Source of the DNA: a virus
Length of the DNA stretch: 64,000 bases
IMG/VR virus record: IMGVR_UViG_3300045988_180399
Strand: one strand, 5' to 3'
A program made the position numbers and the translations under genes. Numbering within the stretch: the stretch's first letter is position 1; every line of letters begins with the position of its first letter. Under the pieces are notes generated by a model. That model was not told the DNA's origin. It saw nothing but the letters and a program-made list of their open reading frames with translations, and did not search any database. Shown piece after piece: positions 1,067 through 38,938 of the stretch.

Positions 1067-1861
1067 TTGAATATGAGCAATAAGAACATTTTTCAGCGTG
1101 TGGCGGCAATCACCGCAGAACTGGGCGCTATTGCCAAGGACCTGACCGTTGGTGAGGGGGATAAGGCGTACAGCGCAACCTCCGAGGCTACGATTCTTGC
1201 GGCAGTCAAGCCGCTGGAAGAGAAGCACGGCGTCTTTTCTTACGCGGTCAGCCGTACCCTCGACCAGAAAATCGTCGAGAAGCCGTATATGTGGAACGGT
1301 GAGCAGCGTTTGGTCCGTTTGGTTATGGCGACGGTAACTGAGGTCTACCGTTTCGTCAACGTTGACGAGCCGACAGACTGTCTGGAGACCGTCAGCTTCG
1401 GCACGGGTATGGATTCCGGAGATAAGGCTCCCGGTAAGGCTATGACCTACGCCGATAAGTACGCTTTGATGAAGACGTACAAAATCAGCACCGGCATTGC
1501 CAATGACCCGGATTCCATTCCGTCTCCCGATGAAGGAGTTGCTTTCGTGGAGACGAATCCCCTGATTCCGTCCTCCAAGAATAACCCCATGATTCCGGCG
1601 ACCAGTCCGGCGGCCAGCACCCCCGTCACCCAGCCCACACAGGCCCCGGCAAAGGCGGTTGCGAATACGCAGATGTCTCTTGACGCGGCGAGACAGGTCA
1701 TCGTTCCGTTCGGCAACTACGCCAAGAAGACGCTTGGTGAGCTGATGACGATTGACCGCAGTCTGGTGGAGTTCTACGCAAGCGACCGCTTCTCCCGCAG
1801 GGATACTTACCCGCAGCTGCATGAGGCTGCACAGGTCATTACGCAGAGCAAAGCCGGTTGA
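1067..1861 (+). CDS. ERF-family single-strand annealing protein (phage-type recombinase), putative
   Basis: 264 aa; N-terminal and central motif (KAMTYADKYALMKTYKISTG) reminiscent of ERF SSAPs; start overlaps stop of upstream ORF (TAATTGAATATG). Confidence 0.45.
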   Translation: MNMSNKNIFQRVAAITAELGAIAKDLTVGEGDKAYSATSEATILAAVKPLEEKHGVFSYAVSRTLDQKIVEKPYMWNGEQRLVRLVMATVTEVYRFVNVDEPTDCLETVSFGTGMDSGDKAPGKAMTYADKYALMKTYKISTGIANDPDSIPSPDEGVAFVETNPLIPSSKNNPMIPATSPAASTPVTQPTQAPAKAVANTQMSLDAARQVIVPFGNYAKKTLGELMTIDRSLVEFYASDRFSRRDTYPQLHEAAQVITQSKAG

Positions 1862-1931: not shown

Positions 1932-3416
1932 ATGGGCTACGATAAATTCAGCATTGACATCCGAGAGGTTGTCAAACTGCTTGGCTTAAAGGTGTCTCCG
2001 CAATCGGATTTTAATGGGACGTCTTTCAACGTTCGTTGTCCGTTTTGCAATGACACCAAATATCACATGAATATCAATACCGTGAAGAATGCGTATTCGT
2101 GTGTGAAGTGCTCCGGAGGTGAGAAGGGGCAAGGAGCGTTGGACCTGTATGCCCGCGTTGCACATGGCGTTCGCTGTGTTAAGGGACAGAACAGCAGGGA
2201 AATGTACCGAAAGCTCTGCGACGACCTGCACATCGAAGCCCCAGTTCGCAGCCGCGTACAGAAAGCACAACTCCCGGAGGTCGTGGAAATCCACCGCGCC
2301 AGCGACGAGGTGGTGGATAAGGCGTATCGGAAGCTCTTGGACATCAAGTTCTTTCAGCTTTCTGACCTGCACCGTGAGAATCTGCACAGGCGCGGCTTTT
2401 CCGATGAAGCGATTGAGCGAAACGGGTATCGAAGCATTTCGGCCGATTTTCCGTGGGTCAACCGTTACTGGAAAGCGAAGGAGCAGTATCAGAAGCTGAT
2501 TCCGTCTATTCGCAAGGACAATATCCTCAAGCGCCGTACCCCAGAACGGCTTATCGCAGGTCTCATTGCGGCCTCCATCCTTGCCAAATGCGGATGCGAG
2601 CTGCGAGGCGTACCCGGTTTTTTCCGGATAGACGGCGTGTGGTGCTTCAACCTTGAGCCGGGGATGCTGATTCCAACGCGAAATGCGGTAGGTCAAATCG
2701 TTGCCCTGCAAGTACGGCGGGATAAACCGTCCGACTGGAACGATTACTGCAAGCGTACCGGCCAGAACAAGGAGTTTCTTCGGTACATGACCATCTCCGC
2801 GAAAGGCCTGCCAGACGGCGTTACCACGGATATCAGTCAGGCGCATTTCCCACTTGGGAACGATAGCCTGGATGACCCGGAAACCGCTGTCTGCATTACG
2901 GAAGGCCCTCTCAAGGCGGATGCAGCAGTTGAATTGAAGGGCAATCGAAAGATGTTTTTCATTGCGCTGCACGGAACGTCCAATACCAAAACCTTGCCAG
3001 CAATTTTCGCATGGCTGAAAGGCAAAGGTGTTGAAACGGTATTCAATGTATTTGACATGGATAAGGTCACAAATGTCAATGTCGCAAAGGCGGGAAAGCG
3101 TGTTCGAGCTATCGCCGCAGGATACGGCATCAAACTCGCAGAGAAATGCTGGGATGTGGAATATGCACAGCGGAAACTCAGCGAACTGAATGCCATCTGT
3201 TGTGAGCATGGCATTTTCGTTCCGACCACCTTCAACGTGTTCACAGACCTCGCAAATGTTTCTCAGGAGCTTGCAAAGCGAAATATCCGGCACAGCCGCG
3301 TCAAAAACGCAGATGGGCTGGAAGAGAAACACTACTGGTCTGATAAGACCAAGGGAATTGACGACTATCTGTTGTCTATCAGGACCGCCACAGGCGGTGA
3401 AGGGGCCTCTGCTTAA
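1932..3416 (+). CDS. DNA primase, N-terminal zinc finger (CPFC...H...CVKC) + Toprim domain
   Basis: 494 aa; zinc-ribbon CPFCNDTKYH...SCVKC; Toprim-like motif CITEGPLKADAA...FDMDK; typical of conjugative-element/plasmid primases. Confidence 0.6.
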   Translation: MGYDKFSIDIREVVKLLGLKVSPQSDFNGTSFNVRCPFCNDTKYHMNINTVKNAYSCVKCSGGEKGQGALDLYARVAHGVRCVKGQNSREMYRKLCDDLHIEAPVRSRVQKAQLPEVVEIHRASDEVVDKAYRKLLDIKFFQLSDLHRENLHRRGFSDEAIERNGYRSISADFPWVNRYWKAKEQYQKLIPSIRKDNILKRRTPERLIAGLIAASILAKCGCELRGVPGFFRIDGVWCFNLEPGMLIPTRNAVGQIVALQVRRDKPSDWNDYCKRTGQNKEFLRYMTISAKGLPDGVTTDISQAHFPLGNDSLDDPETAVCITEGPLKADAAVELKGNRKMFFIALHGTSNTKTLPAIFAWLKGKGVETVFNVFDMDKVTNVNVAKAGKRVRAIAAGYGIKLAEKCWDVEYAQRKLSELNAICCEHGIFVPTTFNVFTDLANVSQELAKRNIRHSRVKNADGLEEKHYWSDKTKGIDDYLLSIRTATGGEGASA

Positions 3417-3638: not shown

Positions 3639-4052
3639 ATGATGAATAGCAATCTCGAACAAATTCAAGAGAGACAGCGCGTCCGCGCCCGCATCGTTTC
3701 TTTAGCAACGGTCGTGTGCCTGACGGCTGCTATGTTTACCGTCACCGCTTTTGCGGCGAATACTGAAACCGCGCAGGGCTTCCAGCAAATCACGTCGGCC
3801 GGCAAGACCATTCTGAAGGGCATCTGGGATATGCTGCAAGCGATTACCGCGCCTCTGGCTCTGGTCGGCATTGGCTTCAATGTTGTGAAGGCTCTGCTCG
3901 GTACGGAAAAGGGTATGGAAAAGTGCAAGGACAACATCATCAAGATTCTGTTTGTTGTTGGCGTCATCTTCCTTGCTCCGCTGTTCGTTACGACCGTTAC
4001 CGGCGCGATTGGCAATATTGCTGACAACTCCACGAACCAAATCTTTGGTTGA
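3639..4052 (+). CDS. TrbC/VirB2-like T4SS pilin-family small membrane protein
   Basis: 137 aa from ATGATG at 3639; signal peptide ending AFA-AN, then two hydrophobic helices and short C-tail, architecture of TrbC/VirB2 pilins. Confidence 0.45.
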   Translation: MMNSNLEQIQERQRVRARIVSLATVVCLTAAMFTVTAFAANTETAQGFQQITSAGKTILKGIWDMLQAITAPLALVGIGFNVVKALLGTEKGMEKCKDNIIKILFVVGVIFLAPLFVTTVTGAIGNIADNSTNQIFG

Positions 4053-4238: not shown

Positions 4239-4649
4239 ATGGATGAACGAATTCATAGATTTTTGATTCCCATTTTAGTAGCTCTCTGCATCGTGTCGGT
4301 CAGCCTGACGCTTTCTGCGCCTGTGTTTGCGGCAGACCCGTGGTCCCCGGATGTAGAGTTTGGTACGAATGTATCTGGTTCGTCTATGCGGGAGTATCGG
4401 GACCGCATCAGCGCAACCTACAAATTTATTCTCAGCATGGCAGCCCCATTCGCACTTGTCACGATTACTGTCGGGGGCCTTATTGCTTTTTTTGGGTCTG
4501 AGAAAGATGCGGAAAGGGGCTTCTCCATGATAAAGATGTCCCTGATTGCGCTCATGGCGTTGTACTTATTGCCGCTGGTCATTTCAGCAGCATACAACTC
4601 GTTGAACGGGGTCAAATGGGACCCCGCACATCCAGATTTTACTTGGTGA
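4239..4649 (+). CDS. small secreted/membrane protein (signal peptide + 2 TM), possible second pilin-like T4SS component
   Basis: 136 aa; N-terminal signal peptide (VFAADP), two hydrophobic segments. Confidence 0.4.
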   Translation: MDERIHRFLIPILVALCIVSVSLTLSAPVFAADPWSPDVEFGTNVSGSSMREYRDRISATYKFILSMAAPFALVTITVGGLIAFFGSEKDAERGFSMIKMSLIALMALYLLPLVISAAYNSLNGVKWDPAHPDFTW

Positions 4650-8771: not shown

Positions 8772-10097
8772 ATGACTACCCATATCTGGAAAAAGATGCT
8801 TTCCTCACTGCTGTGCGGTATTCTCTCGGTATCCTGCATGACAGCTACCGTATTTGCCATTGACGGCAAGAGCGTAAGCGGCGCATTTGGTGAGCACTGG
8901 GATGAAGTCCAGGAATCGTATGAAACCTCCTTCGGCTGGGACTATAATAAGCATCTTGAGAAGGACTGGACGGATGACGACACCGGAAACGAATATGAGC
9001 GGCAAGCAGGGTATCAGGAAGAGTGGTATCGGAATAACATTCTGACCACAAAGCAATACCTTGGTGTTTCGACTGGAGAAGGCGGAAATGGCAGCAATAT
9101 CGTTGAAGTCGCGCTCAGCCAACTCGGCTTGGATGATTCCATTGAAATCCCGCCGAACTCGAATTTTGTCAAATACAATGACTGGTACTATGGCAGCCAC
9201 CGTTCCGGACAGTGGTGCGCGGCGTTCGTCTCTTGGTGCGCAAATGAATGTGACCTTTTGGAAAATACAATTCCAAAGGATGCCAGTTGCTCAAGTATGT
9301 TTAAGAAACTCACGGGAAGATACGGCTACGCATACTATCCCGTTCGAAGCACAACACCGTTCGGTGGTTCTTATACACCGGTTCCGGGCGACCTTATGTT
9401 TTTTTCAGAGACTGGTAATCTAAGGCTGGCTAAGCCTTTTAATCACATCGGCATCATTGTTGAGGTGGATGAAACCGGATGGTACACGGTCGAGGGCAAC
9501 ACAACTGGCGGCGGGCAAATCCCAGGCGGCGGCGTTGCAAAAAACCACTATACAGCATCGACCACATACAAAGCCGCGAAGAACGGCTATATCGTTCATG
9601 TAGAATATCCTGAAACAGCATTTTCGGAAATCCAGGGCGGCACCAACAAGGAGAAGGTGTTCTCCTTCCTGACAGAAGAACTTGGCCTGAACAATGCTGC
9701 CGCCTGCGGGGTTATGGCAAATATCCAAAATGAATCTGGTTTTAACCCGGCAAGACATGAGGATAAAAACGCATACGGAGATGGACTGGGAGAAGGTTAT
9801 GGTTTATGCCAGTGGTCCTATAGCAGAAAGACATCACTACTGAGCTTTTTGCAGGAAAACGGTTTTGCTGAGGACTCTATAGACGGACAACTCTGGTTTT
9901 TCAAGACCGAAATCGAATCTTCGGAGCGTACAGCGTGGAATGCCATCAAGGACCTGCCTAATACATCAGATGGCGCGTATGAGGCCGGACGCCTGTGGTG
10001 CCTGAAATTTGAGCGTCCGCGTGATGGTGTCGGAGATTCTGTGGAGCGAGGCAATCTCGCGCAAAATACATACTGGCCCGCTTACGGCGGACGGTGA
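8772..10097 (+). CDS. secreted cell-wall hydrolase: CHAP domain + lysozyme-like (phage-tail-lysozyme type) domain (VirB1/TcpG functional analogue)
   Basis: 441 aa; signal peptide; CHAP Cys (GQWCAAFVSWC) and His (HIGIIVEV); C-terminal ...NESGFNP...GLCQWSYS motif. Confidence 0.6.
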   Translation: MTTHIWKKMLSSLLCGILSVSCMTATVFAIDGKSVSGAFGEHWDEVQESYETSFGWDYNKHLEKDWTDDDTGNEYERQAGYQEEWYRNNILTTKQYLGVSTGEGGNGSNIVEVALSQLGLDDSIEIPPNSNFVKYNDWYYGSHRSGQWCAAFVSWCANECDLLENTIPKDASCSSMFKKLTGRYGYAYYPVRSTTPFGGSYTPVPGDLMFFSETGNLRLAKPFNHIGIIVEVDETGWYTVEGNTTGGGQIPGGGVAKNHYTASTTYKAAKNGYIVHVEYPETAFSEIQGGTNKEKVFSFLTEELGLNNAAACGVMANIQNESGFNPARHEDKNAYGDGLGEGYGLCQWSYSRKTSLLSFLQENGFAEDSIDGQLWFFKTEIESSERTAWNAIKDLPNTSDGAYEAGRLWCLKFERPRDGVGDSVERGNLAQNTYWPAYGGR

Positions 10098-10105: not shown

Positions 10106-12382
10106 GTGACCATGACTCAACAACAGCAGAATCTGATTCGCAGACTGAAAATCGCATTGTTGGTAGTCCTCATATTGTCTATTTACATGACGGGGATTGT
10201 TCTCAGCATTTCCGTAGTGAAGTCCACGCTCAACCCGTTCCGTTTGATTCGCCTCTTCGGTGAGTACGGCTTTCCGTGGAAAATGTTCCTTGGCTGTTTT
10301 CTTTTCATCGGTATTGCCATTTCCATCCTGATGGCATACTCCGTTTCCGAGGAAGCGGGTGTCGATAAGATGGGTCGCTTGTTTTCCATGGCGATTGGCC
10401 GCAAGACATACGGAGAAGCGCACTTTGAGGACCCGAAAGAATACGAGGATGTCGCTATCATCCAGCATGAGCCGCAGGCAGTTGGCACTATCCTCGGACA
10501 ACTGGACGAGACAGGCCGCTACCCCATTGTATTCCGAGAGGATAAGATGAACCGTGCGAACCGGCACATTGCCGTCATCGGCGCGTCAGGCTGCGGCAAG
10601 ACCTATACCTTTACAAAGAACTACGCTTTCCAGGCGGTAAAGCGCCGGGAGTCCCTGATATTCACAGACCCGGACGGCGGCCTTTACGCAGATATGGCAA
10701 GGTACTTCATGGACAACGGATATGTCGTGCGACGCTTCGACCTGCACAATATCAGCAAGAGTGACGGCTGGAATTGCATGGACTCGCTTTTGGCAGACCC
10801 AGAACGTATTGGCGAAAATGCAGAGATTTTTGCAAATGTTATCATTTCCAACGCCGGAGGGAGTGCCGGCATTTACGAGAGCGGACCGAAATCTCTTCTG
10901 AAGGCGCTCCTTCTGCGCGTTGCGCTTGGACATGACTACCCGCCTGAGAAGAAAAATATCAACTCTGTCCATCAGATGCTCAAGAACCCAGGGGGAGAGG
11001 CTTATCTGGATATGATGTTTGACCCGGACAGTCTTACGCCGGAGGAACAGCCCTGCGTCGGGCCGTACATGACCTTCAAGCAGTCCTCACCGAATCTTCG
11101 CGGCAACCTCATTGTGAACCTTGCGGCAGATATCGGGGTTATGGATGACGCAAAAGTGCGGACGCTGCTCTCCACCCCCTGCATTGATATGTCTCTTCCC
11201 GGAAAGCAGCCTTGCGCTTATTTCTGCATTTTCCCTGACAGCCATGACACCTACAAATTCATCGTGTCCCTGTTCTTCTCCATGCTGTTCATTACCCTTA
11301 TCAACGACGCGGATAATAACGGCAAGGACCGTATGCTCGATGTCCCTGTTGATTTCCTGCTGGACGAGTTTCCGTCCATCGGTACGATTCCGGATTTTGA
11401 CCGAAAAATGGCGACGATTCGAAAGCGTGCCATGAATGTCTGCATGATATTTCAAGACATCACCCAGCTTCAGAACAACTACCAGACAACCTGGGCAACC
11501 CTCCTGAGTAACTGCTCGACATTAGTGAGCCTTGGTATCAACGACGAATTTACCGCGAAAATGGTGTCCTCTCGTATCGGTGATACGACCGTAAACGTCC
11601 GGACCAACCAGCATAAGGCGATGGAAACGCTGCTGAAAAACAACGAGTTTCTTCACAACTGGTCATCTGGTGAAGGTAAGCGTGCGCTGGTGGGGCTGGA
11701 TGAAGCATTTAAGATGGGGAAGAACGACAGCATCATTATCTTTCAGGGGCATAACCCTATACTTGCGAAAAAATACCCCCACACGCTCCATACGGACGCC
11801 AAGAAACTCAGCAATTTTGATTTCCGTGAAATCCCACCCATCACCGACAAAGAGGGGCGAGAGCTGTTTTATCAGCGTCAGCAAAATATTCTGGACGCTT
11901 TCAATATCACGCATCCGCACATCAACGAGGTAGACCGTTCGTACACGGGGATGTGCAACTCGATACCAGTACAAAGCATTTGGGAAGAGAGCAAGGATGC
12001 CGTTATTGCATACGTCAAGGAGATAAATAAGAAAGGCTCCGATGACGATGTGATAGAGGTCGAGGACTGCGGTGATGAATACATCGAGGTAGACGAGACA
12101 GACGAGGAGCAGGCGGTCGAACCTTCAGCACCACCTGCACAGCAGGAGCCGGTACTGTCCGTTGACGCAAAGCCGAACGCAGATATCGACTTGGAAAGCG
12201 CAGGGGACGAAACAGAACCGCAGCAGGAAGTCATAAGCAAGCCGAAGGAAGCCCCCACGCCTGCCGAAGCAAAAGAGGTAGCGCAGGGTGGGAAGCGCCC
12301 AGCACCGCCGAAGCGCAGCTTTAGTTCTACGCCGACTACAGGGAAACCGAGAATGTCGGGGAAGCTGCCGGGGATGCGGTAA
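10106..12382 (+). CDS. VirD4/TraG-family type IV coupling protein (T4CP)
   Basis: 758 aa; N-terminal TM helices, Walker A GASGCGKT, TraG/TraD-like core, acidic disordered C-terminus. Confidence 0.75.
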   Translation: MTMTQQQQNLIRRLKIALLVVLILSIYMTGIVLSISVVKSTLNPFRLIRLFGEYGFPWKMFLGCFLFIGIAISILMAYSVSEEAGVDKMGRLFSMAIGRKTYGEAHFEDPKEYEDVAIIQHEPQAVGTILGQLDETGRYPIVFREDKMNRANRHIAVIGASGCGKTYTFTKNYAFQAVKRRESLIFTDPDGGLYADMARYFMDNGYVVRRFDLHNISKSDGWNCMDSLLADPERIGENAEIFANVIISNAGGSAGIYESGPKSLLKALLLRVALGHDYPPEKKNINSVHQMLKNPGGEAYLDMMFDPDSLTPEEQPCVGPYMTFKQSSPNLRGNLIVNLAADIGVMDDAKVRTLLSTPCIDMSLPGKQPCAYFCIFPDSHDTYKFIVSLFFSMLFITLINDADNNGKDRMLDVPVDFLLDEFPSIGTIPDFDRKMATIRKRAMNVCMIFQDITQLQNNYQTTWATLLSNCSTLVSLGINDEFTAKMVSSRIGDTTVNVRTNQHKAMETLLKNNEFLHNWSSGEGKRALVGLDEAFKMGKNDSIIIFQGHNPILAKKYPHTLHTDAKKLSNFDFREIPPITDKEGRELFYQRQQNILDAFNITHPHINEVDRSYTGMCNSIPVQSIWEESKDAVIAYVKEINKKGSDDDVIEVEDCGDEYIEVDETDEEQAVEPSAPPAQQEPVLSVDAKPNADIDLESAGDETEPQQEVISKPKEAPTPAEAKEVAQGGKRPAPPKRSFSSTPTTGKPRMSGKLPGMR

Positions 12383-12399
12383 TATCAGCACAGGCCACA

Positions 12400-12432
12400 G
12401 GCACGCCAGCATTTCGTTGGCGTGCCTTTTTG
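12400..12432 (+). terminator. rho-independent terminator
   Basis: GGCACGCC ...loop... GGCGTGCC + TTTTT. Confidence 0.65.
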
Positions 12433-12469
12433 CTTGCGCCGTTGTATGTAATCTCACCTCATTCGTTAC

Positions 12470-12498
12470 TTTACAAATAAGATAAAGTGTGGTATAAT
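12470..12498 (+). promoter_or_regulatory. sigma-A type promoter (TTTACA-N17-extended -10 TGTGGTATAAT)
   Basis: -35 TTTACA 12470-12475, -10 TATAAT 12493-12498 with TGTGG extension; upstream of signal peptidase gene. Confidence 0.6.
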
Positions 12499-12515
12499 AT
12501 AGACATAGAGAAGAG

Positions 12516-13046
12516 GTGATTCCAATGAAAGAACGAAATCTCACCAACCGCACTGTATGGAGCCGTGAAGTGCTCAAGGGTTCCCTGGAGGGGCTTATTA
12601 TCGCTCTCCTTTTGTTCCGAATCCTGTTCAATGTTGTTGTGGTGTCCGGCCCTTCTATGGTGCCGACGCTTGCGGACAATAGTGTGATTCTGACAAATCA
12701 CATTAAGCCGAATCTGGAGTTTGAGAGCATTGTTGTTTGCAATTCGAGCGGTCTGGATGAAAATATCGTTAAGCGTATTATTGGTTGCCCCGGTGATACC
12801 ATCGACATTGATTTCGAACAGGGGGTGGTCTATCGAAACGGAATCGCGCTGAGTGAACCGTACACGAATACCCCGACCAACATCGAATATGACGATGGTA
12901 TATCGTTTCCTCTCACCGTGGAGGATGGCTATTACTTTGTGCTGGGGGATAATCGAAACAACAGCCTTGACAGCCGCAGTTCCATTGTCGGATTGATTCT
13001 GAGAACGGACATCGAATCGTCCTATGTACTCACTATCATCGGGTAA
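12516..13046 (+). CDS. signal peptidase I (S26 family), TraF-like candidate pilin-processing peptidase
   Basis: 176 aa; catalytic Ser box SGPSMVPTL, Lys box VKRIIGCPGD, GDNRNNSLDSR box; size matches plasmid TraF-type peptidases. Confidence 0.75.
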   Translation: MIPMKERNLTNRTVWSREVLKGSLEGLIIALLLFRILFNVVVVSGPSMVPTLADNSVILTNHIKPNLEFESIVVCNSSGLDENIVKRIIGCPGDTIDIDFEQGVVYRNGIALSEPYTNTPTNIEYDDGISFPLTVEDGYYFVLGDNRNNSLDSRSSIVGLILRTDIESSYVLTIIG

Positions 13047-13066
13047 TCATTGAAAAGCAAGTAGAA

Positions 13067-13107
13067 GGCCTATGAGCGGGATTCCGTTCATAGGCCTTTT
13101 GCTTTTG
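13067..13107 (+). terminator. rho-independent terminator
   Basis: GGCCTATGAGCGG...CCGTTCATAGGCC + TTTT. Confidence 0.65.
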
Positions 13108-13203
13108 AAAATCTGCGAAAAAATTGACTTTTGAACGAAAGGTTGTAATAATAAAAGTGTAGGGTATTAAGATGCCCTAAATCATGCAAAGGAGGCAATA
13201 GCA

Positions 13204-14457
13204 ATGGTCAAAAAAGATGGAGCAACTGCTTCAATCGAGGAAAACGCTGAAGTGCAGGCTCCCACTGAGGAACAGAGCAACGTCCAATCCTCCACCGCAG
13301 AGAGCGTTGAAACGCAGGCCACCAATGAAGAGGACGCAGAGATGCAGGCACTCTTTGAAGGGCTTGATGGAAACGAACCTGAGCAGTCCGGCGCGGAGGA
13401 AACCGCTCCCAATGGGAAGCCTACCCGTGCTGATGTACTGAGGGAGGCAAGGCGGCGGAGAGCGGAAAGAAGTGAGTCTGTCCGTGCCTATCAGGAGTTT
13501 CTTATCGGACTTTCTTCATTGACGGTCGCAGCTAAAAACCACAGCATCGTAAACGGTCTCGTCTCTCATATTGAGCAGCGAAACGATGTGGATTCGGAAG
13601 TTCCCTGTGTCATGATTATCGCGCTCGTAGAGGGCCGCTACAAGGTTTCCATTCCCTTTGACGAGTTCTATCAGAAGAATCCCATTGATATGGCGACGGT
13701 AAATATGGAAACTAAGGCCGGTCGTGAAGAGTACGTCAACCGCTGCGCTACGATGGCGGCAAAGCTGTATTCCCTGAATGTGCCGATGGTGATTACGACT
13801 ATCCAGGTCGATGAAAGCACCGATGCTGAAGCCGGAGTTCCGGCTTATGTCATTGTCGCGTCCCGTAAGGCTGCGCTCGACATTATTGAGGAGGCAAATT
13901 ACGGAGACCGACCTGATGGTGATGGCCCGCGCATTCAGGAAGGCGATTTTGTTCGTGCTCAGATTACCTCTGTGGCACGCGACAGCATTGCCGTTGTGGT
14001 TGGCGGAGTCGATACGCGGGTGCCGCTCCACGCCCTGACTTTCGAGTACCTTGTTGACGCGAGAACCAAATACAAGGTGGGGCAGGAAATTATGGTTCAG
14101 GTAGAGCAAATCATCAAAGAGAAAGACGGCCACCACATCGTCGAGGTGAACTGTAAGCAGCCTGAGTTGGAGCGTGCGAAGCAAATGCGCAGTGCTCTTC
14201 CAATCGGCTCCATCGTGTTTGGCATCGTATCTTCCGTGGCTGCGAGTAAGAAGCAGCCTGGGAATATCAATGTGTTGGCGTATATCAAGATGTACGATTT
14301 ACCCGTACTCGTGAACAATATGCCTGCGAAATTCCTTGGGAGCGAGCCTCCGCGTGGTTCGACCGTCCGGCTGAAGGTTCTTAATTATTTGGACAACGGG
14401 ATGATTCTGTGTCGGTGCATCGGCACCCAAGGCCCCATGAATTTCCCCAACGCCTGA
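13204..14457 (+). CDS. hypothetical protein with S1/OB-fold-like repeats
   Basis: 417 aa; acidic N-terminus; segments GDFVRAQITSVARDSIAVVVGGVDTRVPLHAL and GSIVFGIVSSV... resemble S1 domains. Confidence 0.4.
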   Translation: MVKKDGATASIEENAEVQAPTEEQSNVQSSTAESVETQATNEEDAEMQALFEGLDGNEPEQSGAEETAPNGKPTRADVLREARRRRAERSESVRAYQEFLIGLSSLTVAAKNHSIVNGLVSHIEQRNDVDSEVPCVMIIALVEGRYKVSIPFDEFYQKNPIDMATVNMETKAGREEYVNRCATMAAKLYSLNVPMVITTIQVDESTDAEAGVPAYVIVASRKAALDIIEEANYGDRPDGDGPRIQEGDFVRAQITSVARDSIAVVVGGVDTRVPLHALTFEYLVDARTKYKVGQEIMVQVEQIIKEKDGHHIVEVNCKQPELERAKQMRSALPIGSIVFGIVSSVAASKKQPGNINVLAYIKMYDLPVLVNNMPAKFLGSEPPRGSTVRLKVLNYLDNGMILCRCIGTQGPMNFPNA

Positions 14458-14470
14458 CGACCGTTTCGGT

Positions 14471-14512: not shown

Positions 14513-14545
14513 AAACGGCTTTTTTGAAAGGAGGCTTGCATTCTC

Positions 14546-15418
14546 GTGAGCGATAAGCGTAACGAGGACTTGAAACAGTTCATTATTCCAGAAAATTTTA
14601 TGGGAGAATCCAGACTATTTCAAGGGCAGTTAAAGACACGCAATGTAGTGGAAGGAGGATTGATTTCGGGGGTATTGGCAATTTTCTTTTGGAATGTCAT
14701 TTCAGTTCCTATCACCACAAAAATATCCCTGGTCATATTCCTTTCCGCACCACTTGGCCTGCTTGGCTTGTTTGGAGTGAACGGCGACCCGCTGTCCACC
14801 TTTATCAAGATTTTCTTTTCATGGCGAAGAAAACGGGGGCTGATGCTGTTCAACAACGAAGCACGAGCGTTGAAGGAAGCCCCCATTAAGCTCATGATGT
14901 CGGAAGATGGCATGGGCGACAAACTCAGGGATTTTCTGGATGCCAGAAAGGAAAAGAAGGCCGCCGAACGGGCGAGTCAGGAGATGGTTGAAGGCAAAAC
15001 ATTCGAGTTTGCACCTGACAGTTCACTTGAGGGCAACTACATTGATGAAGATGACGATGGCGATGGAACGCCGAGCGGCAGCGCCGGCAATCGCCATAAA
15101 ACAAAGCACAACCAATCCTTCGTTGAAGTGGAAGTCCTGGAAGAGGATGACGATACCTCGTTGGAACTGGACGGATTTACGGAGGATATCGACAGCAGCA
15201 CTGTTGAGGAATCTGGCCCGCCGTTGCCGGATTTGGGCGGGGCCGACGATGTGGAATTGAGCAACGATGACACCAACGAGATGCCTGACGCCGAGGAACC
15301 TGACGATAATCCCCCCGCGTGTGAAACGCAACTGGAGCCTGCGGCAGAGGATGATTCTGACGCCGAAGGCGACGCGGATGGGGAAGATGAAGAACTTGAC
15401 GAGGAGGATTTGTTTTAA
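14546..15418 (+). CDS. TcpE/VirB3-like small membrane T4SS protein with long acidic C-terminal tail
   Basis: 290 aa, GTG start after GGAGG; two adjacent TM helices near N-terminus; stop overlaps VirB4 start (TAATG). Confidence 0.5.
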   Translation: MSDKRNEDLKQFIIPENFMGESRLFQGQLKTRNVVEGGLISGVLAIFFWNVISVPITTKISLVIFLSAPLGLLGLFGVNGDPLSTFIKIFFSWRRKRGLMLFNNEARALKEAPIKLMMSEDGMGDKLRDFLDARKEKKAAERASQEMVEGKTFEFAPDSSLEGNYIDEDDDGDGTPSGSAGNRHKTKHNQSFVEVEVLEEDDDTSLELDGFTEDIDSSTVEESGPPLPDLGGADDVELSNDDTNEMPDAEEPDDNPPACETQLEPAAEDDSDAEGDADGEDEELDEEDLF

Positions 15419-17910
15419 TGTCCAGAAAACTGAAACAGGTGATAAGCTGCCAATCTTTCTCGCCCATAAGTGATGTCCGTGACGGCATCATCGTCACGAA
15501 AGACGGGAAATTTGTGAAGTTGATGGAGTTCTCTCCCATTAACTACGGCTTACGGTCGAACGAGGATAAGAACATGATTACGGCACAATATGCGGCCGCA
15601 ATCCGCTCGTTTCCAAGCGTTGTCCAAATCAAAGTTCTGTCCAATCGAGCAAATGTCGAACACTATATTTCCGGCATGGTGGAAAGCGTGCGCCATGAAA
15701 AGAATGAAGGAACCCGTGAACTGATGCGGGAGCAAATCGACATGATGTCAGAATTTGGCGCATCGCAAGGCGTATCCCGTCGCTTCTTTCTCGCATTCCA
15801 GTACGAGGAAGAAGAGGGATTCGCACATCGTTCACCATCATGGAATGAAATCAGAAGCACCATTACGAGACAGGAGGACGCCATCAGAAGCAACCTTCGG
15901 GCCTGCGGCAACATTATGATTTCAAGGCCTCACGATGACGTCTATGTGCTTTCCACGCTTTACGATATCATGTCCAGAGCACAGAGCGCGAACCACCCGT
16001 TTGACGAGAGAATGGCGGATGTTGTTGCCCGATATACGGCGGCAAACATCGACTTCACGCGAGATAGCGCGGCGCATCTTCCTGTCAATGATGTGCTTGC
16101 TCCGTACTGCATTGATACGGAGTCAAGTCCCCGATATATCATCGTGGATGGCATCTACTATATGTGCTGCTATCTTCCGAGCAATGCCTATCCTGTGCGC
16201 GTTCTTGGCGGCTGGATGCAGCTGCTGGCAGGGCTGGGAGAGGGGATTGATGTGGATGTTTGGCTTCAGAAGATTTCACCGGAGAAGATTCAAACGGCAC
16301 TGCATCATGGCCTGCGGTTCAATGCAATGCGCTTCCGCAACACAGAAACCACCAGTAGCGACTACGATGATGTGAAGGCTGCGGTGGACGCAGGATACTA
16401 TCTGAAAAGCTCTCTCGCGGCCGGCGACGAATTTGCCTATATGTCTACAATGCTCACTATTACAGGTGAAAGCGAGCGAGAAATTGACTACAAATTCAAG
16501 GAAATCCGGCGCATTTTCATTGAGAGAGAATTGACTCTGAAGCCTTGTACTTTCCAGCAAGCGGAAGCGTTTCGCTCCACCATTCCCGTATGTGAGTATG
16601 ACAAAAACCTATTCCGTAAGAGCCGCAGAAATATTCTGTGTTCCGATTTTGCGTCCACCTATATGTTCACATCTTCCGAGCTGTGCGATAAGGACGGCGT
16701 GATGCTGGGCGTGGATGATGTGTTCAAATCACCGGTTCTGGTCAACTTCTTCGACCGCCAGCAATACATCAATGCCAACATCAATATTGTCGGCTCCTCT
16801 GGCTCCGGTAAGACCTTCACCACGCAGGTTCTGGCATTGAGAATGCGGGAGAAGGGGGTTCAAACCTTCATTATCGCGCCGCTGAAAGGCAAGGAGTTCC
16901 TGCCGCTTTGCGAGAAGGTCGGGGGTAGTTTCATTGAAATCAAACCTGGCTCCGGACAGAATATCAATATCATGGAGATACGCAAGAAGGAAGAGGGTAA
17001 CGTCTACGATGACGATGGTGCGTTGGTCACTTCCGGCTCGATTTTGGCACAGAAAATCCAGCAACTTCTCATTTTCTTTAAGCTGATTATCCCGGACATG
17101 ACGCCAGAAGAGGTGCAGTATGTGGATGACGCGCTGCTGAAAACTTACGGCAATTTCGGAATTACCCATAAGAACAAGAGCCTGTTGGACCCCAACGACA
17201 AGAAGAAATACCGCAAAATGCCTATCCTTTCGGACGTATATTCCGAGCTGGAAAAGATGGGCGCACCAGCAAATCGTTTGTGCCGTTTGCTGACGCGATA
17301 CACCACAGGTTCTGCATCTTCGTTCAACGCGCAAACCAATGTGAACCTTAACAACAAGTTCGTAGTGCTGGATGTTTCCGATGCGCAGAAAGACTTTCTT
17401 CCTGTGGCTATGTTCCTTGCATTGGATTATGTTTGGGATAAATGCAAAGAAAATCGGAACGTCAACAAGTGTGTTTTCATTGACGAGACTTGGCGCTTGG
17501 TCTGCTCCGATGCACCTATCGAAGCCGCCAATTTCGTGGTCGAAATCTTCCGTACTATCCGAGGCTTCGGCGGAAGTGCCGTCGCTGCCACGCAGAATAT
17601 CGCAGACTTCTTCTCTGCGGGAATTGGCACCGCCATCATCGGAAACGCCAAAATCAAAATGATTTTGCGCAGCGAAAAAGAGGAAGCAAACGCGATTGCG
17701 GATGCGATTGGTCTGACCGACGAAGAACTCAAGCGTGTAAAAACCATGGACCGTGGAACCTGTCTCCTGACCGCAAATGAGAACCACATTTTCATCAATG
17801 TTAAGGCGACGGATACGGAAGAATACCTGATAACGACTGACCCCAAAGCAAGAGCCGCTGCGAAGCGCCGAATTGAGCAGAAGCGTACTTGCGCTGCCTT
17901 CAGGCGCTGA
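15418..17910 (+). CDS. VirB4/TcpF/PrgJ-family conjugal transfer ATPase
   Basis: 830 aa; Walker A GSSGSGKT, Walker B-like VFIDETW, CagE/TrbE/VirB4 architecture. Confidence 0.8.
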   Translation: MSRKLKQVISCQSFSPISDVRDGIIVTKDGKFVKLMEFSPINYGLRSNEDKNMITAQYAAAIRSFPSVVQIKVLSNRANVEHYISGMVESVRHEKNEGTRELMREQIDMMSEFGASQGVSRRFFLAFQYEEEEGFAHRSPSWNEIRSTITRQEDAIRSNLRACGNIMISRPHDDVYVLSTLYDIMSRAQSANHPFDERMADVVARYTAANIDFTRDSAAHLPVNDVLAPYCIDTESSPRYIIVDGIYYMCCYLPSNAYPVRVLGGWMQLLAGLGEGIDVDVWLQKISPEKIQTALHHGLRFNAMRFRNTETTSSDYDDVKAAVDAGYYLKSSLAAGDEFAYMSTMLTITGESEREIDYKFKEIRRIFIERELTLKPCTFQQAEAFRSTIPVCEYDKNLFRKSRRNILCSDFASTYMFTSSELCDKDGVMLGVDDVFKSPVLVNFFDRQQYINANINIVGSSGSGKTFTTQVLALRMREKGVQTFIIAPLKGKEFLPLCEKVGGSFIEIKPGSGQNINIMEIRKKEEGNVYDDDGALVTSGSILAQKIQQLLIFFKLIIPDMTPEEVQYVDDALLKTYGNFGITHKNKSLLDPNDKKKYRKMPILSDVYSELEKMGAPANRLCRLLTRYTTGSASSFNAQTNVNLNNKFVVLDVSDAQKDFLPVAMFLALDYVWDKCKENRNVNKCVFIDETWRLVCSDAPIEAANFVVEIFRTIRGFGGSAVAATQNIADFFSAGIGTAIIGNAKIKMILRSEKEEANAIADAIGLTDEELKRVKTMDRGTCLLTANENHIFINVKATDTEEYLITTDPKARAAAKRRIEQKRTCAAFRR

Positions 17911-26479: not shown

Positions 26480-27157
26480 ATGTGGAAAGAGATATTGCCG
26501 CCAGATGTGCAGGCGCTGGGTGCCGGACTTGCTGAGCGGGCGGCGCGTGAGCGTGAGGCGGGGCATACGATATACCCGCCGCAGGAGCAGATATTCCGTG
26601 CGTTGGAGCTTACCCCGCCGGAGAAGGTGAAGGTATGCCTTGTCGGGCAAGACCCATATCACGAGGCGGGGCAGGCGAACGGGCTGTGTTTTTCAGTAAA
26701 CCGTGGTGTGCTGTTTCCTCCGTCGCTCAGGAACATCTTCAAGGAGCTGGTCAGTGATATTGGTTGTCCGTATCCGAAAAGTGGAGACCTGACTCACTGG
26801 GCGAAACAAGGCGTGCTCATGCTCAATACCGTACTTACGGTACAGGAGGGTGCCGCAAACAGCCATAAAAACTGGGGGTGGCAGAACTTCACGCAGGCGG
26901 TATTCGCGGCGTGTGCGAAGCTGCCGCAGCCGATTGTGTTCATCACATGGGGCGGACAGGCGAGAGCTTTTCTTGCCGGAATTCCAATTTCACAACTGCC
27001 TAATAAGGGTGTGGTATTTTCAAGTCATCCAAGCCCCCTTGGAGCGCGAAAAGGAAACGATGTAGTAAAAGCGTTCATCGGCAGCAGACCTTTTTCTCAA
27101 ACTAACAGATTGTTGGAACAGATGGGAAGCACACCAATTCACTGGGAGCTTCCATAG
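26480..27157 (+). CDS. ung: uracil-DNA glycosylase, family 1
   Basis: 225 aa; GQDPYH water-activating loop, HPSPL(G) DNA-intercalation loop, overall UNG length/order of motifs. Confidence 0.9.
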   Translation: MWKEILPPDVQALGAGLAERAAREREAGHTIYPPQEQIFRALELTPPEKVKVCLVGQDPYHEAGQANGLCFSVNRGVLFPPSLRNIFKELVSDIGCPYPKSGDLTHWAKQGVLMLNTVLTVQEGAANSHKNWGWQNFTQAVFAACAKLPQPIVFITWGGQARAFLAGIPISQLPNKGVVFSSHPSPLGARKGNDVVKAFIGSRPFSQTNRLLEQMGSTPIHWELP

Positions 27158-37765: not shown

Positions 37766-37794
37766 TTGACAAGTAAGCTATTGTGTGGTATAAT
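37766..37794 (+). promoter_or_regulatory. sigma-A type promoter TTGACA-N17-TGTGGTATAAT
   Basis: -35 37766-37771, -10 37789-37794. Confidence 0.65.
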
Positions 37795-37818
37795 TGCTGC
37801 ATTCAATGAAGGGGGGGT

Positions 37819-38938
37819 GGTTGACATCACGAATACCAGTAATTTAGCCGCTGACCGTGCGCTTGCCTATGAAGCCATTGAAAGGCAGCCTGAAACAGAA
37901 GAAATCGCAGCTTCGAATGAACAGGAGACCGAAGCGAAGCAGCCGGGAAATATCGGCGACCATGTGGCGATGTATCTCAGCCAAATTGGCAGCATCCCCA
38001 TTATGCCGCAGGTGGAAGCGAATCGCTGTATTGAAAAAGTGCAGAAGGGGAATGCCGCTGCCGAACAGCTCGAAACGCTGCGGGTGATTGCCGAGGAGAG
38101 CGGGAATGCAGTTGACCCCGAAATCAAGAAAGACCTGATGAAGGCCATAGAAGCAGGAAGACGGGCGAAAGATAAGGTTGTTGAGGGCAATCTTCGGCTT
38201 GTTGTGTCCATCGCAAAGAAATATATAAACTCAGCCGATTCTATGGTGTTCATGGACCTCATTCAGGAGGGCAACATTGGCCTCATGCGTTCCATCGACT
38301 CTTTTGACATTTCGAGGAATGTGAAGTTTTCCACCTACGCAACCTTCTGGATAAGGCAAAACATCACAAGAGCGCTTGCCACGACGGACCCAGCCATTCG
38401 CAAGCCCATCTATGTTGCGGAGGGCAGGCGGAGCGTCAATAATGCAAAAGAACAAATGCAACAAAAAGGCTTACCTTGTGATGACCCTTTAGAAATCGCA
38501 AAATACATGGAGGGGGATGCGTGGGATTCCCTTTCAAAAAGGGAGCAGCAGAAAAAACTGCGCATCATCCAACACTCGCTCCAGTACCGGAAGCCGGACT
38601 CGTTGGATGCGCCCGTCAATTCGGACGCCGCAAGCGATTCCAACACACCGCTTTCGGAATTCATCCCAAGCCATAACGAGTGGGATAACCCGGAAATTTC
38701 AACGTCAGGGAAGGCACTATGGGAAACGATGGACAAAATCCTGCACGATATGCCCGCACGAGACGCCTGTGTGCTTCGCTTACGATTCGGATTGGAGGAT
38801 GGTTGTGCTTATACCCTCAAAGAAATCGGGGACGAAATGGACTTAACGCGAGAGCGTGTCCGTCAGGTTACAGATAAAACACTCGATAAGCTACGCAACG
38901 GAAAGGCAGGGAAGATGCTTCAGGACTTTCTTGAATAA
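37819..38938 (+). CDS. RNA polymerase sigma-70 family sigma factor (regions 1.2, 2, 3, 4)
   Basis: ~373 aa; likely GTG start 37819 after GAAGGGGGGG (ORF open from 37766); region 1.2 DHVAMYLSQIGSIPIMP, region 2 NLRLVVSIAKKY...LIQEGNIGLMRSIDSFD...FSTYATFWIRQ, region 4 LTRERVRQVTDKTLDKLR. Confidence 0.8.

What the first reader, a model, noticed from the sequence alone, without database searches (positions are those of the whole stretch)
12516..13046. TraF-like signal peptidase I embedded in a Gram-positive-type T4SS next to a TrbC/VirB2-like pilin
A 176-aa S26 peptidase with intact Ser/Lys boxes sits between the VirD4 coupling protein and the VirB3/VirB4 pair. It has its own TTTACA-N17-TGTGGTATAAT promoter. 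Its size is that of plasmid TraF peptidases, which mature or cyclise TrbC pilin in P-type systems. The cluster also encodes a TrbC/VirB2-like protein with a signal peptide (3639..4052) and a second small signal-peptide/2-TM protein (4239..4649). Dedicated pilin processing is not a standard feature of Firmicutes MPF_FA systems. This suggests a hybrid architecture or a pilus-like structure in this element.
Basis: partly seen in the sequence, partly recalled or inferred. Interest (0 to 1): 0.55.

Follow-up and report, generated by a model that had tools for sequence, protein, structure and literature searches.

The report
Signal peptidase fixed in clostridial conjugation module
A gut Clostridia mobile element carries its own ordinary-type signal peptidase, kept for a long time right after the DNA-transfer coupling protein in a conjugation gene cluster that also encodes two pilin-like membrane proteins; it most likely trims the export signals of those proteins and is not a member of the TraF pilin-cyclising family.

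Summary
An S26 signal peptidase I gene lies at 12516/12525..13046 (probably 173 aa from the ATG at 12525). It has intact Ser, Lys and GDNR..S.DSR boxes and sits after VirD4. It has its own near-consensus extended -10 promoter and hairpin terminators on both sides. Two VirB2-topology proteins (3639..4052, 4239..4649) lie 8.5 kb upstream.

The TraF label fails. The protein scores 103 bits on the general bacterial SPase I model (cut-off 47) but 20 bits on the TraF model (cut-off 100). Its nearest non-element relatives are chromosomal Oscillospiraceae LepB proteins.

The new result is conservation. In 11 diverged lineages of this T4SS family (VirD4 41-87% identical between lineages) the peptidase directly follows VirD4. 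It co-diverges with VirD4 (Mantel r 0.91), is under strong purifying selection (dN/dS 0.04-0.09), and usually keeps its own promoter.

One lineage and all distant relatives lack it, yet they carry VirB2-like proteins with the same ..FA| cleavage site. It is therefore auxiliary, not obligatory.

The T4SS is of the VirD4/PrgI (CD1115, MPF_FATA-like) type, not Tn916-type MPF_FA.

Best reading: an element-borne LepB-type peptidase that matures the module's exported proteins. Cyclisation and a true pilus remain untested. Interest is moderate.

The parts
12399..12427 (+). Intrinsic terminator hairpin after virD4 (12-bp stem, then a T-run)
   Evidence: One search lists it as the best terminator-like site. 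fold: -26.1 kcal/mol, z -4.6. An equivalent hairpin is present in other lineages.
12470..12498 (+). Promoter of the peptidase gene: TTTACA, 17 nt, TGgTATAAT (extended -10)
   Evidence: 11/12 plus TG. The TGTGGTATAA motif occurs 6 times exactly on the + strand of the window, against about 1.5 expected. It aligns with a shared TTGAC -35. It is conserved upstream of the peptidase in L002, L006, L013, L027, L028, L032 and L052.
12525..13046 (+). Type I signal peptidase (S26, LepB/SipS type), 173 aa. It has an N-terminal membrane anchor (residues ~16-34), catalytic Ser in SGPSM, Lys in VKRIIG, and box E GDNRNNSLDSR. The maximal ORF starts at GTG 12516.
13059..13104 (+). Strong hairpin terminator after the peptidase gene (21-bp stem, U-rich tail)
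   Evidence: -35.2 kcal/mol, z -8.7. Hairpins are also seen downstream of the gene in other lineages.
13124..13152 (+). Next promoter (TTGACT, 17 nt, TG-AATAAT), driving the S1-domain gene and probably the VirB3/VirB4 operon
   Evidence: A similar TTGAC..TGGTA(C/T)AAT promoter lies at this place in other lineages.
3639..4052 (+). VirB2/TrbC-like protein 1 (137 aa): signal peptide ending TAFA|A, two TM helices, basic loop. Candidate substrate.
   Evidence: AF2 model is a two-helix hairpin, pLDDT 71.7.
4239..4649 (+). VirB2-like protein 2 (136 aa), a distant paralogue of protein 1 (19% identity, E 5e-7): signal peptide ending PVFA|A, two TM helices. Candidate substrate.
8772..10097 (+). VirB1-like cell-wall hydrolase (CHAP + Phage_lysozyme2) with signal peptide ..TVFA|I. 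Candidate substrate.
   Evidence: Signal peptides are present in all 13 lineages examined.
10106..12382 (+). VirD4 coupling protein, CD1115 family. The peptidase gene always follows it.
13204..14457 (+). Conserved 417-aa protein with an S1/OB domain and one TM segment. It is the neighbour of VirD4 in distant relatives that lack the peptidase.
14546..15418 (+). PrgI/VirB3-like membrane protein (weak Pfam hit, 2 TM segments)
15418..17910 (+). VirB4 ATPase

Best explanation
The gene encodes an active, membrane-anchored type I signal peptidase of the ordinary Gram-positive LepB/SipS kind. An ancestor of this conjugation-module family took it from a Clostridia host and inserted it between virD4 and the S1-domain gene.

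It is transcribed as its own unit: terminator, strong extended -10 promoter, gene, terminator. In two lineages it is instead translationally coupled to virD4.

On the outer face of the membrane it removes the Sec-type leader peptides (..A/V-F/x-A|) of the module's exported proteins. These are the two VirB2-like proteins, the VirB1-like CHAP/lysozyme hydrolase, and probably other surface proteins of the element. This would make assembly of the transfer apparatus independent of the capacity or specificity of the recipient host's own peptidase.

Shown: family, intact catalytic boxes, conserved position, co-divergence with VirD4, purifying selection, conserved promoter, and signal peptides on the candidate substrates.

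Inferred: which proteins it cleaves, and that this helps transfer.
For: Family:
- TIGR02227 scores 103.2 bits (cut-off 47) and PF10502 scores 96.5 bits.
- PDB best hits are Gram-positive SPase I enzymes.
- Boxes B, D and E are invariant in 11 T4SS-linked lineages.

Linkage:
- The peptidase lies immediately downstream of VirD4 in L001, L002-5, L006/7, L010/11, L013, L027-L033, L035, L052 and L057.
- In an NJ tree, five of the six context-checked T4SS-linked peptidases cluster in one clade of short (168-198 aa) proteins, apart from the 200-240 aa chromosomal LepB group. P0054 branches just outside that cluster, below the chromosomal pair P0022/P0077.
- Pairwise identity of S26 tracks that of VirD4 (Mantel r 0.91, p 2e-4).
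- dN/dS is 0.04-0.09.
- The promoter and flanking terminators are conserved in 8 lineages. The gene overlaps the virD4 stop codon in L010 and L033.

Substrates:
- Signal peptides with canonical small-x-small sites are found on pil1, pil2 and the hydrolase in all lineages.
- The pil1 family keeps xAFA|.
Against: - Nothing shows cleavage of these particular proteins.
- One member of the same module family (L056) and the distant relatives carry VirB2-topology proteins with the same ..FA| sites but no S26 gene in the stretch available. The relatives are L049, Vescimonas plasmid pMM35_02 and C. botulinum pCLK. Host LepB evidently suffices there.
- The stand-alone promoter/terminator layout is also what an accessory 'moron' gene looks like.
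- Plasmid-borne lepB genes unrelated to conjugation are common in Firmicutes (168 plasmid records).
Confidence: 0.55

Rival explanations
1. It is a general secretion helper or cargo gene, like SipP of small Bacillus plasmids. The element-borne SPase I simply adds signal-peptidase capacity for host or element secretory proteins and has no specific role in the T4SS. Its place next to virD4 is historical.
For: - The gene has its own strong promoter and terminators on both sides.
- lepB genes are frequent on Firmicutes plasmids, most of them non-conjugative. Examples are NC_001765 and the 8-kb B. velezensis/amyloliquefaciens plasmids (SipP on pS499, PMC5243856).
- Related T4SS manage without it.
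- The same promoter type drives unrelated genes across the element.
Against: - A cargo gene would not be expected to keep exactly the same slot inside the transfer module through divergence down to ~41% VirD4 identity, nor to co-diverge with VirD4.
- It would not be expected to be translationally coupled to virD4 in two lineages.
Confidence: 0.25
2. It is a functional analogue of TraF/TrhF. Besides or instead of leader removal, the peptidase cuts the C-terminal tail of VirB2-like protein 1 and joins its ends (a cyclic pilin), as proposed for RP4 TrbC and shown for the R27 H-pilus. This would imply a true VirB2 pilus on a monoderm cell.
For: - TraF and TrhF are S26 homologues encoded in T4SS clusters and linked to pilin cyclisation (PMC12037004).
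- Here an S26 enzyme is fixed in a T4SS with TrbC-family proteins.
- Both termini of the two-helix hairpin would lie on the outer face, where the active site is (topology).
- Pil1 homologues have variable 0-15-residue tails after a conserved G/Q-V/I-F.
Against: - It is not a TraF-family sequence (20.3 bits against a cut-off of 100.25).
- It is nested among Clostridia LepB-type enzymes.
- There is no conserved small-x-small or other motif at the pil1 C-terminus. In the window's lineage the tail is a single Gly.
- Pil1-type proteins exist without the peptidase.
Confidence: 0.07
3. It is a regulatory or other proteolytic enzyme. The peptidase would act as a site-1 protease on a membrane regulator, as SipP does on the anti-sigma RsiP in B. 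thuringiensis. Alternatively it would act on recipient or exclusion factors, tying into the element's own sigma factor.
For: - Signal peptidases can carry out regulatory cleavage (PMC8844934, listed).
- The element encodes an RpoD-like sigma factor (37766..38938) and uses a uniform promoter type.
Against: - No anti-sigma factor or ECF sigma was found.
- The element's sigma is group-1/2-like.
- The fixed neighbour is VirD4, not a regulator.
Confidence: 0.05

Closest known systems
RP4 TraF / Ti TraF / R27 TrhF (conjugative-transfer signal-peptidase homologues, TIGR02771)
   Same: It is an S26 Ser/Lys peptidase of ~170-180 aa encoded inside a T4SS gene cluster that also encodes TrbC/VirB2-family proteins.
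   Different: - It fails the family model (20 bits against 100).
- It descends from Clostridia LepB-type enzymes, so this is an independent recruitment.
- The host is a monoderm.
- There is no sequence sign of a C-terminal processing site on the pilin-like proteins.
Housekeeping LepB/SipS-type signal peptidase I of Clostridia (e.g. the tandem lepB pair after rplS in L008)
   Same: - It matches the same family model (TIGR02227).
- Identity is ~50-56%.
- The boxes and the single N-terminal anchor are the same.
   Different: - It is shorter (168-198 aa against 200-240 aa) and mostly clusters apart from the chromosomal group.
- It is carried on a mobile element, in a fixed slot after virD4, with its own strong promoter.
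SipP and other plasmid-borne SPase I genes of Bacillus (pTA1015-type small plasmids; large B. cereus-group plasmids)
   Same: It is an extra LepB-type peptidase carried by a mobile replicon of Firmicutes.
   Different: - Those genes are mostly on non-conjugative plasmids and are not embedded in a T4SS operon.
- Identity is only 34-39%.
- Here the linkage with VirD4 is conserved and co-diverging.
Dedicated signal-peptidase homologues in Gram-positive fibre operons: SipA/LepA of S. pyogenes pilus islands (PDB 4n31) and SipW of the B. subtilis tapA-sipW-tasA operon (the latter from general knowledge)
   Same: It fits the same theme: a peptidase-I homologue encoded beside the subunits of a surface polymer. 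4n31 is a weak hit (E 4e-5).
   Different: - From general knowledge, SipA lacks the catalytic residues and acts as a chaperone for sortase pili.
- From general knowledge, SipW is of the ER/archaeal Ser-His type.
- The present enzyme is a catalytically intact P-type enzyme, and its putative substrates are VirB2-like.
T4SS of Patescibacteria with VirB2-like pilin arrays (PMC12102498, PMC12857230)
   Same: It is a monoderm, MPF_FATA-related T4SS with VirB1/3/4/6/D4 homologues plus multiple divergent VirB2-like genes matched by PF04956/PF18895.
   Different: - Here the host is an Oscillospiraceae (Clostridia) bacterium.
- The system has VirD4 and looks conjugative.
- It has 2-3 pilin paralogues rather than larger arrays.
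- A signal peptidase gene is part of the module.
CD1110/CD1115-type conjugation systems of Clostridia (C. difficile CTn-type; C. botulinum pCLK; Vescimonas pMM35_02)
   Same: - VirD4 passes the CD1115 model (314.7 bits against 250).
- VirB4 is closest to CD1110.
- The S1-domain neighbour, DUF5697 and the CHAP hydrolase are shared.
   Different: - VirB4 is below the CD1110 cut-off (253.6 against 325).
- Gene order differs.
- Those relatives lack the S26 gene.

Membership tests
TraF/TrhF conjugative-transfer signal peptidase (NCBIfam TIGR02771) | Sequence scores above the family model's trusted cut-off | tested here: not met
   20.3 bits against a cut-off of 100.25; only positions 79-168 match
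TraF/TrhF conjugative-transfer signal peptidase (NCBIfam TIGR02771) | S26 fold with Ser/Lys catalytic dyad | tested here: met
   PF10502 at 96.5 bits. SGPSM and VKRIIG are present and invariant in homologues.
TraF/TrhF conjugative-transfer signal peptidase (NCBIfam TIGR02771) | Encoded in a T4SS cluster together with a TrbC/VirB2-family pilin | tested here: met
   The gene lies after VirD4, with VirB2-like genes 8.5 kb upstream in the same module.
TraF/TrhF conjugative-transfer signal peptidase (NCBIfam TIGR02771) | Cleaves the pilin C-terminus and cyclises the pilin | not testable with these tools
   No conserved C-terminal motif was found, and the tail is one residue in this lineage. Mass spectrometry is needed.
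Bacterial type I signal peptidase, LepB/SipS type (TIGR02227, PF10502) | Scores above the family cut-offs | tested here: met
   TIGR02227 at 103.2 against 47; PF10502 at 96.5 against 22.9
Bacterial type I signal peptidase, LepB/SipS type (TIGR02227, PF10502) | Conserved boxes B (S), D (K) and E (GDNRxxSxDSR), and an N-terminal membrane anchor placing the catalytic domain outside | tested here: met
   It aligns with solved Gram-positive SPases 4me8, 4nv4 and 4wvg.
Bacterial type I signal peptidase, LepB/SipS type (TIGR02227, PF10502) | Cleaves Sec signal peptides after small-x-small sites | not testable with these tools
   Candidate substrates with such sites are present. No activity assay was possible.
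TrbC/VirB2 pilin superfamily (PF04956, PF18895), for 3639..4052 and 4239..4649 | Sequence match to the family models | tested here: inconclusive
   The window proteins score just below the gathering cut-offs (26.1 against 27.9; 25.2 against 26.6). However, 11 of 13 pil1 homologues match both models (best E 1.6e-9 and 2.9e-9), and most database homologues carry both precomputed hits. A pil2 homologue scores 26.5 against 26.6.
TrbC/VirB2 pilin superfamily (PF04956, PF18895), for 3639..4052 and 4239..4649 | Long signal peptide, then a two-helix hydrophobic hairpin with a short charged loop; the gene lies in a T4SS cluster | tested here: met
   The AF2 model has helices 4-48 and 51-96.
TrbC/VirB2 pilin superfamily (PF04956, PF18895), for 3639..4052 and 4239..4649 | Structural match to solved conjugative pilins; polymerises into a pilus | tested here: inconclusive
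   Foldseek against the PDB gave no hit with E below 1, because hairpins are unspecific. A profile search against PDB sequences found no pilin. Polymerisation is not testable here.
MPF_FA (Tn916/ICEBs1/pCW3-type) T4SS | TcpA-type coupling protein instead of VirD4 (PMC4027160) | tested here: not met
   The coupling protein is VirD4-type, CD1115 family, 314.7 bits. The TcpF model gives only 23.8 bits on VirB4. The definition was read.
MPF_FATA-like, CD1110/CD1115 clostridial conjugation systems | VirD4 of the CD1115 family, VirB4 of the CD1110 family, PrgI-type VirB3, VirB1-type hydrolase | tested here: inconclusive
   VirD4 is met (314.7 against 250). VirB4 is below the cut-off (253.6 against 325). 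PrgI is weak (19.6 against 27). The CHAP hydrolase is present. CONJScan typing is not available.

The most novel reading that the evidence does not exclude
A family of conjugative elements of monoderm gut Clostridia (Oscillospiraceae) builds a VirB2-based extracellular conduit or pilus. Independently of the proteobacterial TraF/TrhF lineage, it has recruited a host LepB-type peptidase as a dedicated pilin-maturation enzyme. That would be convergent evolution of 'T4SS pilin plus private S26 peptidase'. It would also contradict the textbook statement that Gram-positive conjugation systems lack VirB2 pilins.
Probability: 0.25. Interest if true: 0.7.

Novelty: new variant of a known kind. Interest (0 to 1): 0.45.

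Why it matters

This element is very common in human-gut metagenomes. Its pilin-like protein cluster was seen on 639 contigs, and the peptidase cluster has 806 members. It shows three things:
- A clostridial T4SS has two or three TrbC/VirB2-family genes.
- A signal peptidase has been held in the module through long divergence.
- The same idea as TraF arose from a different branch of the S26 family.

This gives a concrete, testable entry point for two questions. What do VirB2-like proteins do in monoderm conjugation? Does leader-peptide processing limit transfer between hosts? A cultured carrier exists, Pseudoflavonifractor sp. Marseille-P3106.

If the peptidase turns out to be a plain secretion helper, the finding is ordinary.

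Tried and rejected
- Megablast of 3400-18000 against PLSDB plasmids and INPHARED phages found no match.
- tblastn of the peptidase against plasmids at E 1e-8 found nothing. At E 0.01 it found only 34-39%-identical lepB genes, none in a related T4SS.
- An AF2 model of mature pil1 searched with Foldseek against the PDB gave only unspecific helical hairpins, all with E above 1. This is uninformative for or against a VirB2 fold.
- A profile of the pil1 family searched against PDB sequences found no pilin.
- PHROGs on 10 proteins found no phage structural genes. The IMG/VR 'viral' label of two related contigs is therefore probably a misclassification.
- The tRNA scan found none. Pfam on the window's last ORFs found nothing. 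The element's ends, integrase and relaxase were not located.
- A literature search for VirB2 in pCP13 was irrelevant, and one search was malformed.
- I considered whether the small ORFs between VirD4 and the S1 gene in L048/L049 are diverged peptidases. They are RepA_N and DUF5697 proteins, and no S26 signal appears even with filters off.
- I considered a special cleavage motif that would demand a private enzyme. I rejected it because the same ..AFA|/..VFA| sites occur in systems without the gene.
- I considered that the element is one of the 'Hodor' gut megaplasmids (PMC12934698). Shared features are Phage_lysozyme2 domains, misfiling as virus, no obvious relaxase, and Rep_3 next to the module in L055/L057. 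GC content differs (about 52% against 45-47%), and the relationship was not tested.
Full report
1. THE OBSERVATION

The ORF at 12516..13046 (+) exists. It translates to a protein with the three diagnostic S26 motifs: SGPSMVPTL, VKRIIGCPGD and GDNRNNSLDSR.

The maximal ORF starts at GTG 12516. An in-frame ATG at 12525 follows AGAGGTGA at a proper distance. Independent gene calls on a 97%-identical metagenomic contig give 173 aa. The gene is therefore most likely 12525..13046.

Pfam gives Peptidase_S26 at E 2.2e-27.

- VirD4 at 10106..12382 (T4SS-DNA_transf, TraG-D_C).
- A PrgI-like two-TM protein at 14546..15418, and VirB4 at 15418..17910.
- A CHAP + Phage_lysozyme2 hydrolase at 8772..10097.

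Two details need correcting. A conserved 417-aa gene with an S1 domain (13204..14457) lies between the peptidase and the VirB3/VirB4 pair. The pilin-like genes are 8.5 kb away.

2. PROMOTER AND TRANSCRIPTION UNIT

TTTACA (12470), 17 nt, TGgTATAAT (12493-98) is the best sigma-70 match in 3-19 kb.

Two hairpins flank the gene. One lies at 12399-12427 after virD4. A 21-bp stem lies at 13059-13104 after the peptidase (-35.2 kcal/mol, z -8.7). The gene is thus a monocistronic unit.

The motif TGTGGTATAA occurs six times exactly on the + strand, against about 1.5 expected. It always follows a TTGAC -35 element. It stands in front of pil1, the peptidase, the SPFH gene, a UvrD helicase, an RpoD-like sigma gene and others. 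The promoter type is therefore element-wide, not peptidase-specific.

Across seven other lineages the virD4-peptidase spacer again holds a terminator followed by TTGAC-N17-(T)GTGGTATAAT, with unrelated spacer sequence. This is phylogenetic support that the promoter is real. In two lineages (L010, L033) the peptidase start overlaps the virD4 stop.

3. WHICH KIND OF S26 ENZYME

NCBIfam gives two clear scores:
- sigpep_I_bact (TIGR02227): 103.2 bits, cut-off 47.
- TraF_Ti (TIGR02771): 20.3 bits, cut-off 100.25.

Solved-structure hits are Gram-positive SPase I enzymes (4me8, 4nv4, SpsB 4wvg).

Among 1132 homologues, the closest outside the element family are ~50-56%-identical proteins of Oscillospiraceae. 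One of them, P0021, is the classical housekeeping lepB just downstream of rplS, next to a second lepB, ylqF-type GTPase and rnhB genes.

The length of ~175 aa is normal for Gram-positive SPases, so size does not point to TraF. The enzyme is not a TraF-family member. It is a LepB/SipS-type enzyme of clostridial origin.

4. IS THE LINKAGE MEANINGFUL?

Contexts of homologues at 97%, 54%, 50%, 54% and 53% identity (P0001, P0015, P0017, P0018, P0054) all show the same module. Its order is: primase-like, pil1, pil2, a ~700-880-aa membrane protein, a ~440-aa protein, the CHAP hydrolase, VirD4, S26, the S1-domain protein, the PrgI-like protein, VirB4.

I scanned genome, metagenome and viral collections with a VirD4 alignment and ran jackhmmer over all fetched loci.

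Wherever the stretch after VirD4 is present in this family, the S26 gene follows directly, with one exception described in section 6. VirD4 identity to the window's protein runs from 99% down to ~45%. A further lineage came from a distant pilin homologue (L057).

In an NJ tree of 113 homologues, five of the six context-checked T4SS-linked peptidases cluster within one clade of short (168-198 aa) proteins, separate from the 200-240 aa chromosomal group. P0054 branches just outside that cluster, below the pair P0022/P0077. P0022 is chromosomal and not T4SS-linked. The T4SS-linked set is therefore not strictly monophyletic in this unsupported tree.

Further measures:
- Catalytic boxes are invariant.
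- dN/dS is 0.04-0.09 for the least saturated pairs.
- Pairwise S26 identity correlates with pairwise VirD4 identity over 11 lineages (Mantel r 0.91, p 2e-4).

The gene has therefore been inherited with the module since the family's ancestor and is under selection. It is not a recent passenger.

5. THE PILIN-LIKE PROTEINS

The 3639..4052 product has a basic n-region, a hydrophobic core and TAFA|ANT. Two hydrophobic helices separated by TEKGMEKCKDN follow.

The 4239..4649 product has PVFA|ADP and the same layout.

The two align over their full length (19% identity, E 5e-7), so they are old paralogues. L032 has three.

The window proteins sit just under the Pfam thresholds. At family level, 11 of 13 pil1 members hit TrbC (best E 1.6e-9) and T4SS_pilin (best E 2.9e-9). 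Most database homologues carry both precomputed hits.

An exhaustive profile search finds 1657 50%-identity clusters at E<=1e-3 and 277 at E<=1e-10. NCBI already names one relative 'TrbC/VirB2 family protein [Lachnospiraceae bacterium]'.

AF2 gives a two-helix hairpin (pLDDT 71.7). Foldseek and PDB profile searches are uninformative for such a simple fold.

Homology to the VirB2 superfamily is therefore well supported by sequence profiles and topology. Pilus formation is not addressed.

The pil1 family keeps xAFA| at the leader junction. Pil2 and the CHAP hydrolase have ordinary A/V-x-A sites in all lineages.

6. EVIDENCE THAT THE PEPTIDASE IS AUXILIARY

L056 has the same upstream module (primase-like, pil1 with ..NAFA|T, pil2-like, 664 aa, 418 aa, CHAP, VirD4). 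It has no S26 gene anywhere on its 13.9-kb contig.

More distant relatives have no S26 gene in the stretches available, although VirB2-topology proteins with SAFA|V and PVFA|A leaders are seen in L049 and pMM35_02. They are:
- L048 and L049 (VirD4 25-26% identical).
- Vescimonas fastidiosa plasmid pMM35_02 (36%).
- C. botulinum pCLK (33%).

In pMM35_02 VirD4 is followed directly by the S1-domain gene. The S26 gene therefore looks like an insertion between virD4 and the S1 gene that became fixed in one sub-family. The host peptidase can evidently process such leaders elsewhere.

7. WHAT THE ELEMENT IS

VirD4 passes the CD1115-family model (314.7 against 250). VirB4 is nearest to CD1110 (253.6 against 325) and to the Mycoplasma ICE VirB4.

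According to Guglielmini et al. (PMC4027160), MPF_FA uses TcpA instead of VirD4. VirD4 plus PrgI-type VirB3 belongs to MPF_FATA. This is an inference, since CONJScan is not available.

The closest genomes are Oscillospiraceae bacterium CM18GR_63 (99% VirD4 identity, on a 571-kb contig) and Pseudoflavonifractor sp. Marseille-P3106 (58%, on a 1.03-Mb scaffold). Related contigs of 86 and 147 kb are filed as viral in IMG/VR, but no phage structural genes were detected.

The window also encodes:
- ERF and YqaJ recombination proteins.
- A primase-like protein and a UDG.
- UvrD and RecD2 helicases.
- An RpoD-like sigma factor.
- An SPFH protein and an SLH-domain surface protein.

I did not find an integrase, a relaxase or the element's ends. 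Whether it is an ICE or part of a megaplasmid is unresolved. A 2026 preprint describes gut 'Hodor' megaplasmids with similar oddities (PMC12934698). It does not mention a peptidase or pilins.

8. MECHANISM

The best-supported reading (about 0.55) is an element-borne LepB-type signal peptidase. It would cleave the leaders of the module's exported proteins and so secure assembly of the transfer machinery in whatever host the element enters. The candidate substrates are the two VirB2-like proteins, the VirB1-like hydrolase and possibly the SLH surface protein.

The rivals are:
- A SipP-like general secretion helper (0.25). Plasmid lepB genes are common.
- TraF-like C-terminal cleavage and cyclisation (0.07). 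TraF/TrhF precedent is in PMC12037004, but there is no family membership and no C-terminal motif.
- Regulatory proteolysis (0.05).

9. NOVELTY AND VERDICT

Private S26 peptidases in T4SS clusters are known in proteobacteria (TraF, TrhF). Extra SPase I genes on Firmicutes plasmids are also known (SipP).

What I did not find described in the papers searched is a LepB-type peptidase held inside a monoderm clostridial T4SS module that also carries VirB2-family genes. Current reviews say Gram-positive T4SSs, other than those of Patescibacteria, lack VirB2.

I rate it a new variant of a known kind and of moderate interest (0.45). The function is still inferred, and the peptidase is dispensable in relatives.

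Noticed in passing
window 3467, 12488, 23889, 26206, 30934, 37784 (+), and 58283 with one mismatch: There is an element-wide promoter type, AATTGAC-N17-TGTGGTATAAT, with a partly conserved spacer (..AAGCTAATA..). It precedes pil1, the peptidase, the SPFH gene, an HTH/UDG region, UvrD, the sigma-factor gene and the SLH protein. There are six exact copies against ~1.5 expected.
   Followed up: partly
window 37766..38938 (+): The element encodes its own RpoD-like (group 1/2) sigma-70 factor (RpoD models ~220-230 bits). The promoter motif at 37784 lies inside the maximal ORF, so the true start is further downstream. Related plasmids (pMM35_02, pCLK) also carry sigma-70 genes near VirD4.
   Followed up: partly
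window 13204..14457 (+); L053 15576-16820; L054 17845-18633: A membrane-associated protein with an S1/OB domain is the conserved neighbour of VirD4. This holds even in distant relatives (Vescimonas plasmid, C. botulinum pCLK, L048/L049). It is an uncharacterised candidate T4SS component, possibly binding ssDNA.
   Followed up: partly
L046, L047 (IMG/VR UViG contigs of 86 and 147 kb): Close relatives of this element are filed as viral genomes in IMG/VR, although no phage structural genes were found in the window by PHROGs. The same kind of misfiling is reported for gut 'Hodor' megaplasmids (PMC12934698).
   Followed up: partly
protein P0185 (583 aa, NCBI source): A single 583-aa protein matches the VirB2-like profile in 7 separate stretches. 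It looks like a tandem fusion of pilin-like units.
   Followed up: no
L032 2945-4452: One lineage carries three tandem VirB2-like paralogues instead of two. This is reminiscent of the pilin arrays reported in Patescibacteria.
   Followed up: no
window 58337..60757 (+): An 806-aa secreted protein has three SLH domains plus MBG and InlB-B-repeat-like domains. It is a candidate cell-wall-anchored adhesin of the element and another likely signal-peptidase substrate.
   Followed up: no
window 1067..1861, 1932..3416, 26480..27157, 30974..32842, 54506..55873, 55955..58180: There is a large set of DNA-metabolism genes: ERF annealing protein, primase-like protein (CHC2 + DUF3854), UDG, UvrD helicase, YqaJ exonuclease with a NERD domain, and RecD2 helicase. 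No recognisable relaxase or integrase is in the 64 kb. The RecD2-type helicase has weak TraA/TraI helicase-domain similarity.
   Followed up: partly
L055 10892-11692; L057 5315-6316: In more distant members of the module family, a Rep_3 replication initiator gene lies beside the pilin genes. This suggests that some relatives are plasmids rather than integrated elements.
   Followed up: no
L010 10647-11137 (-); L056 12303-12524: In two lineages the first half of the module (pilins to VirD4) ends at a ParE/DUF6290 toxin-antitoxin pair instead of continuing into the S1/PrgI/VirB4 genes. The module can therefore be split.
   Followed up: no
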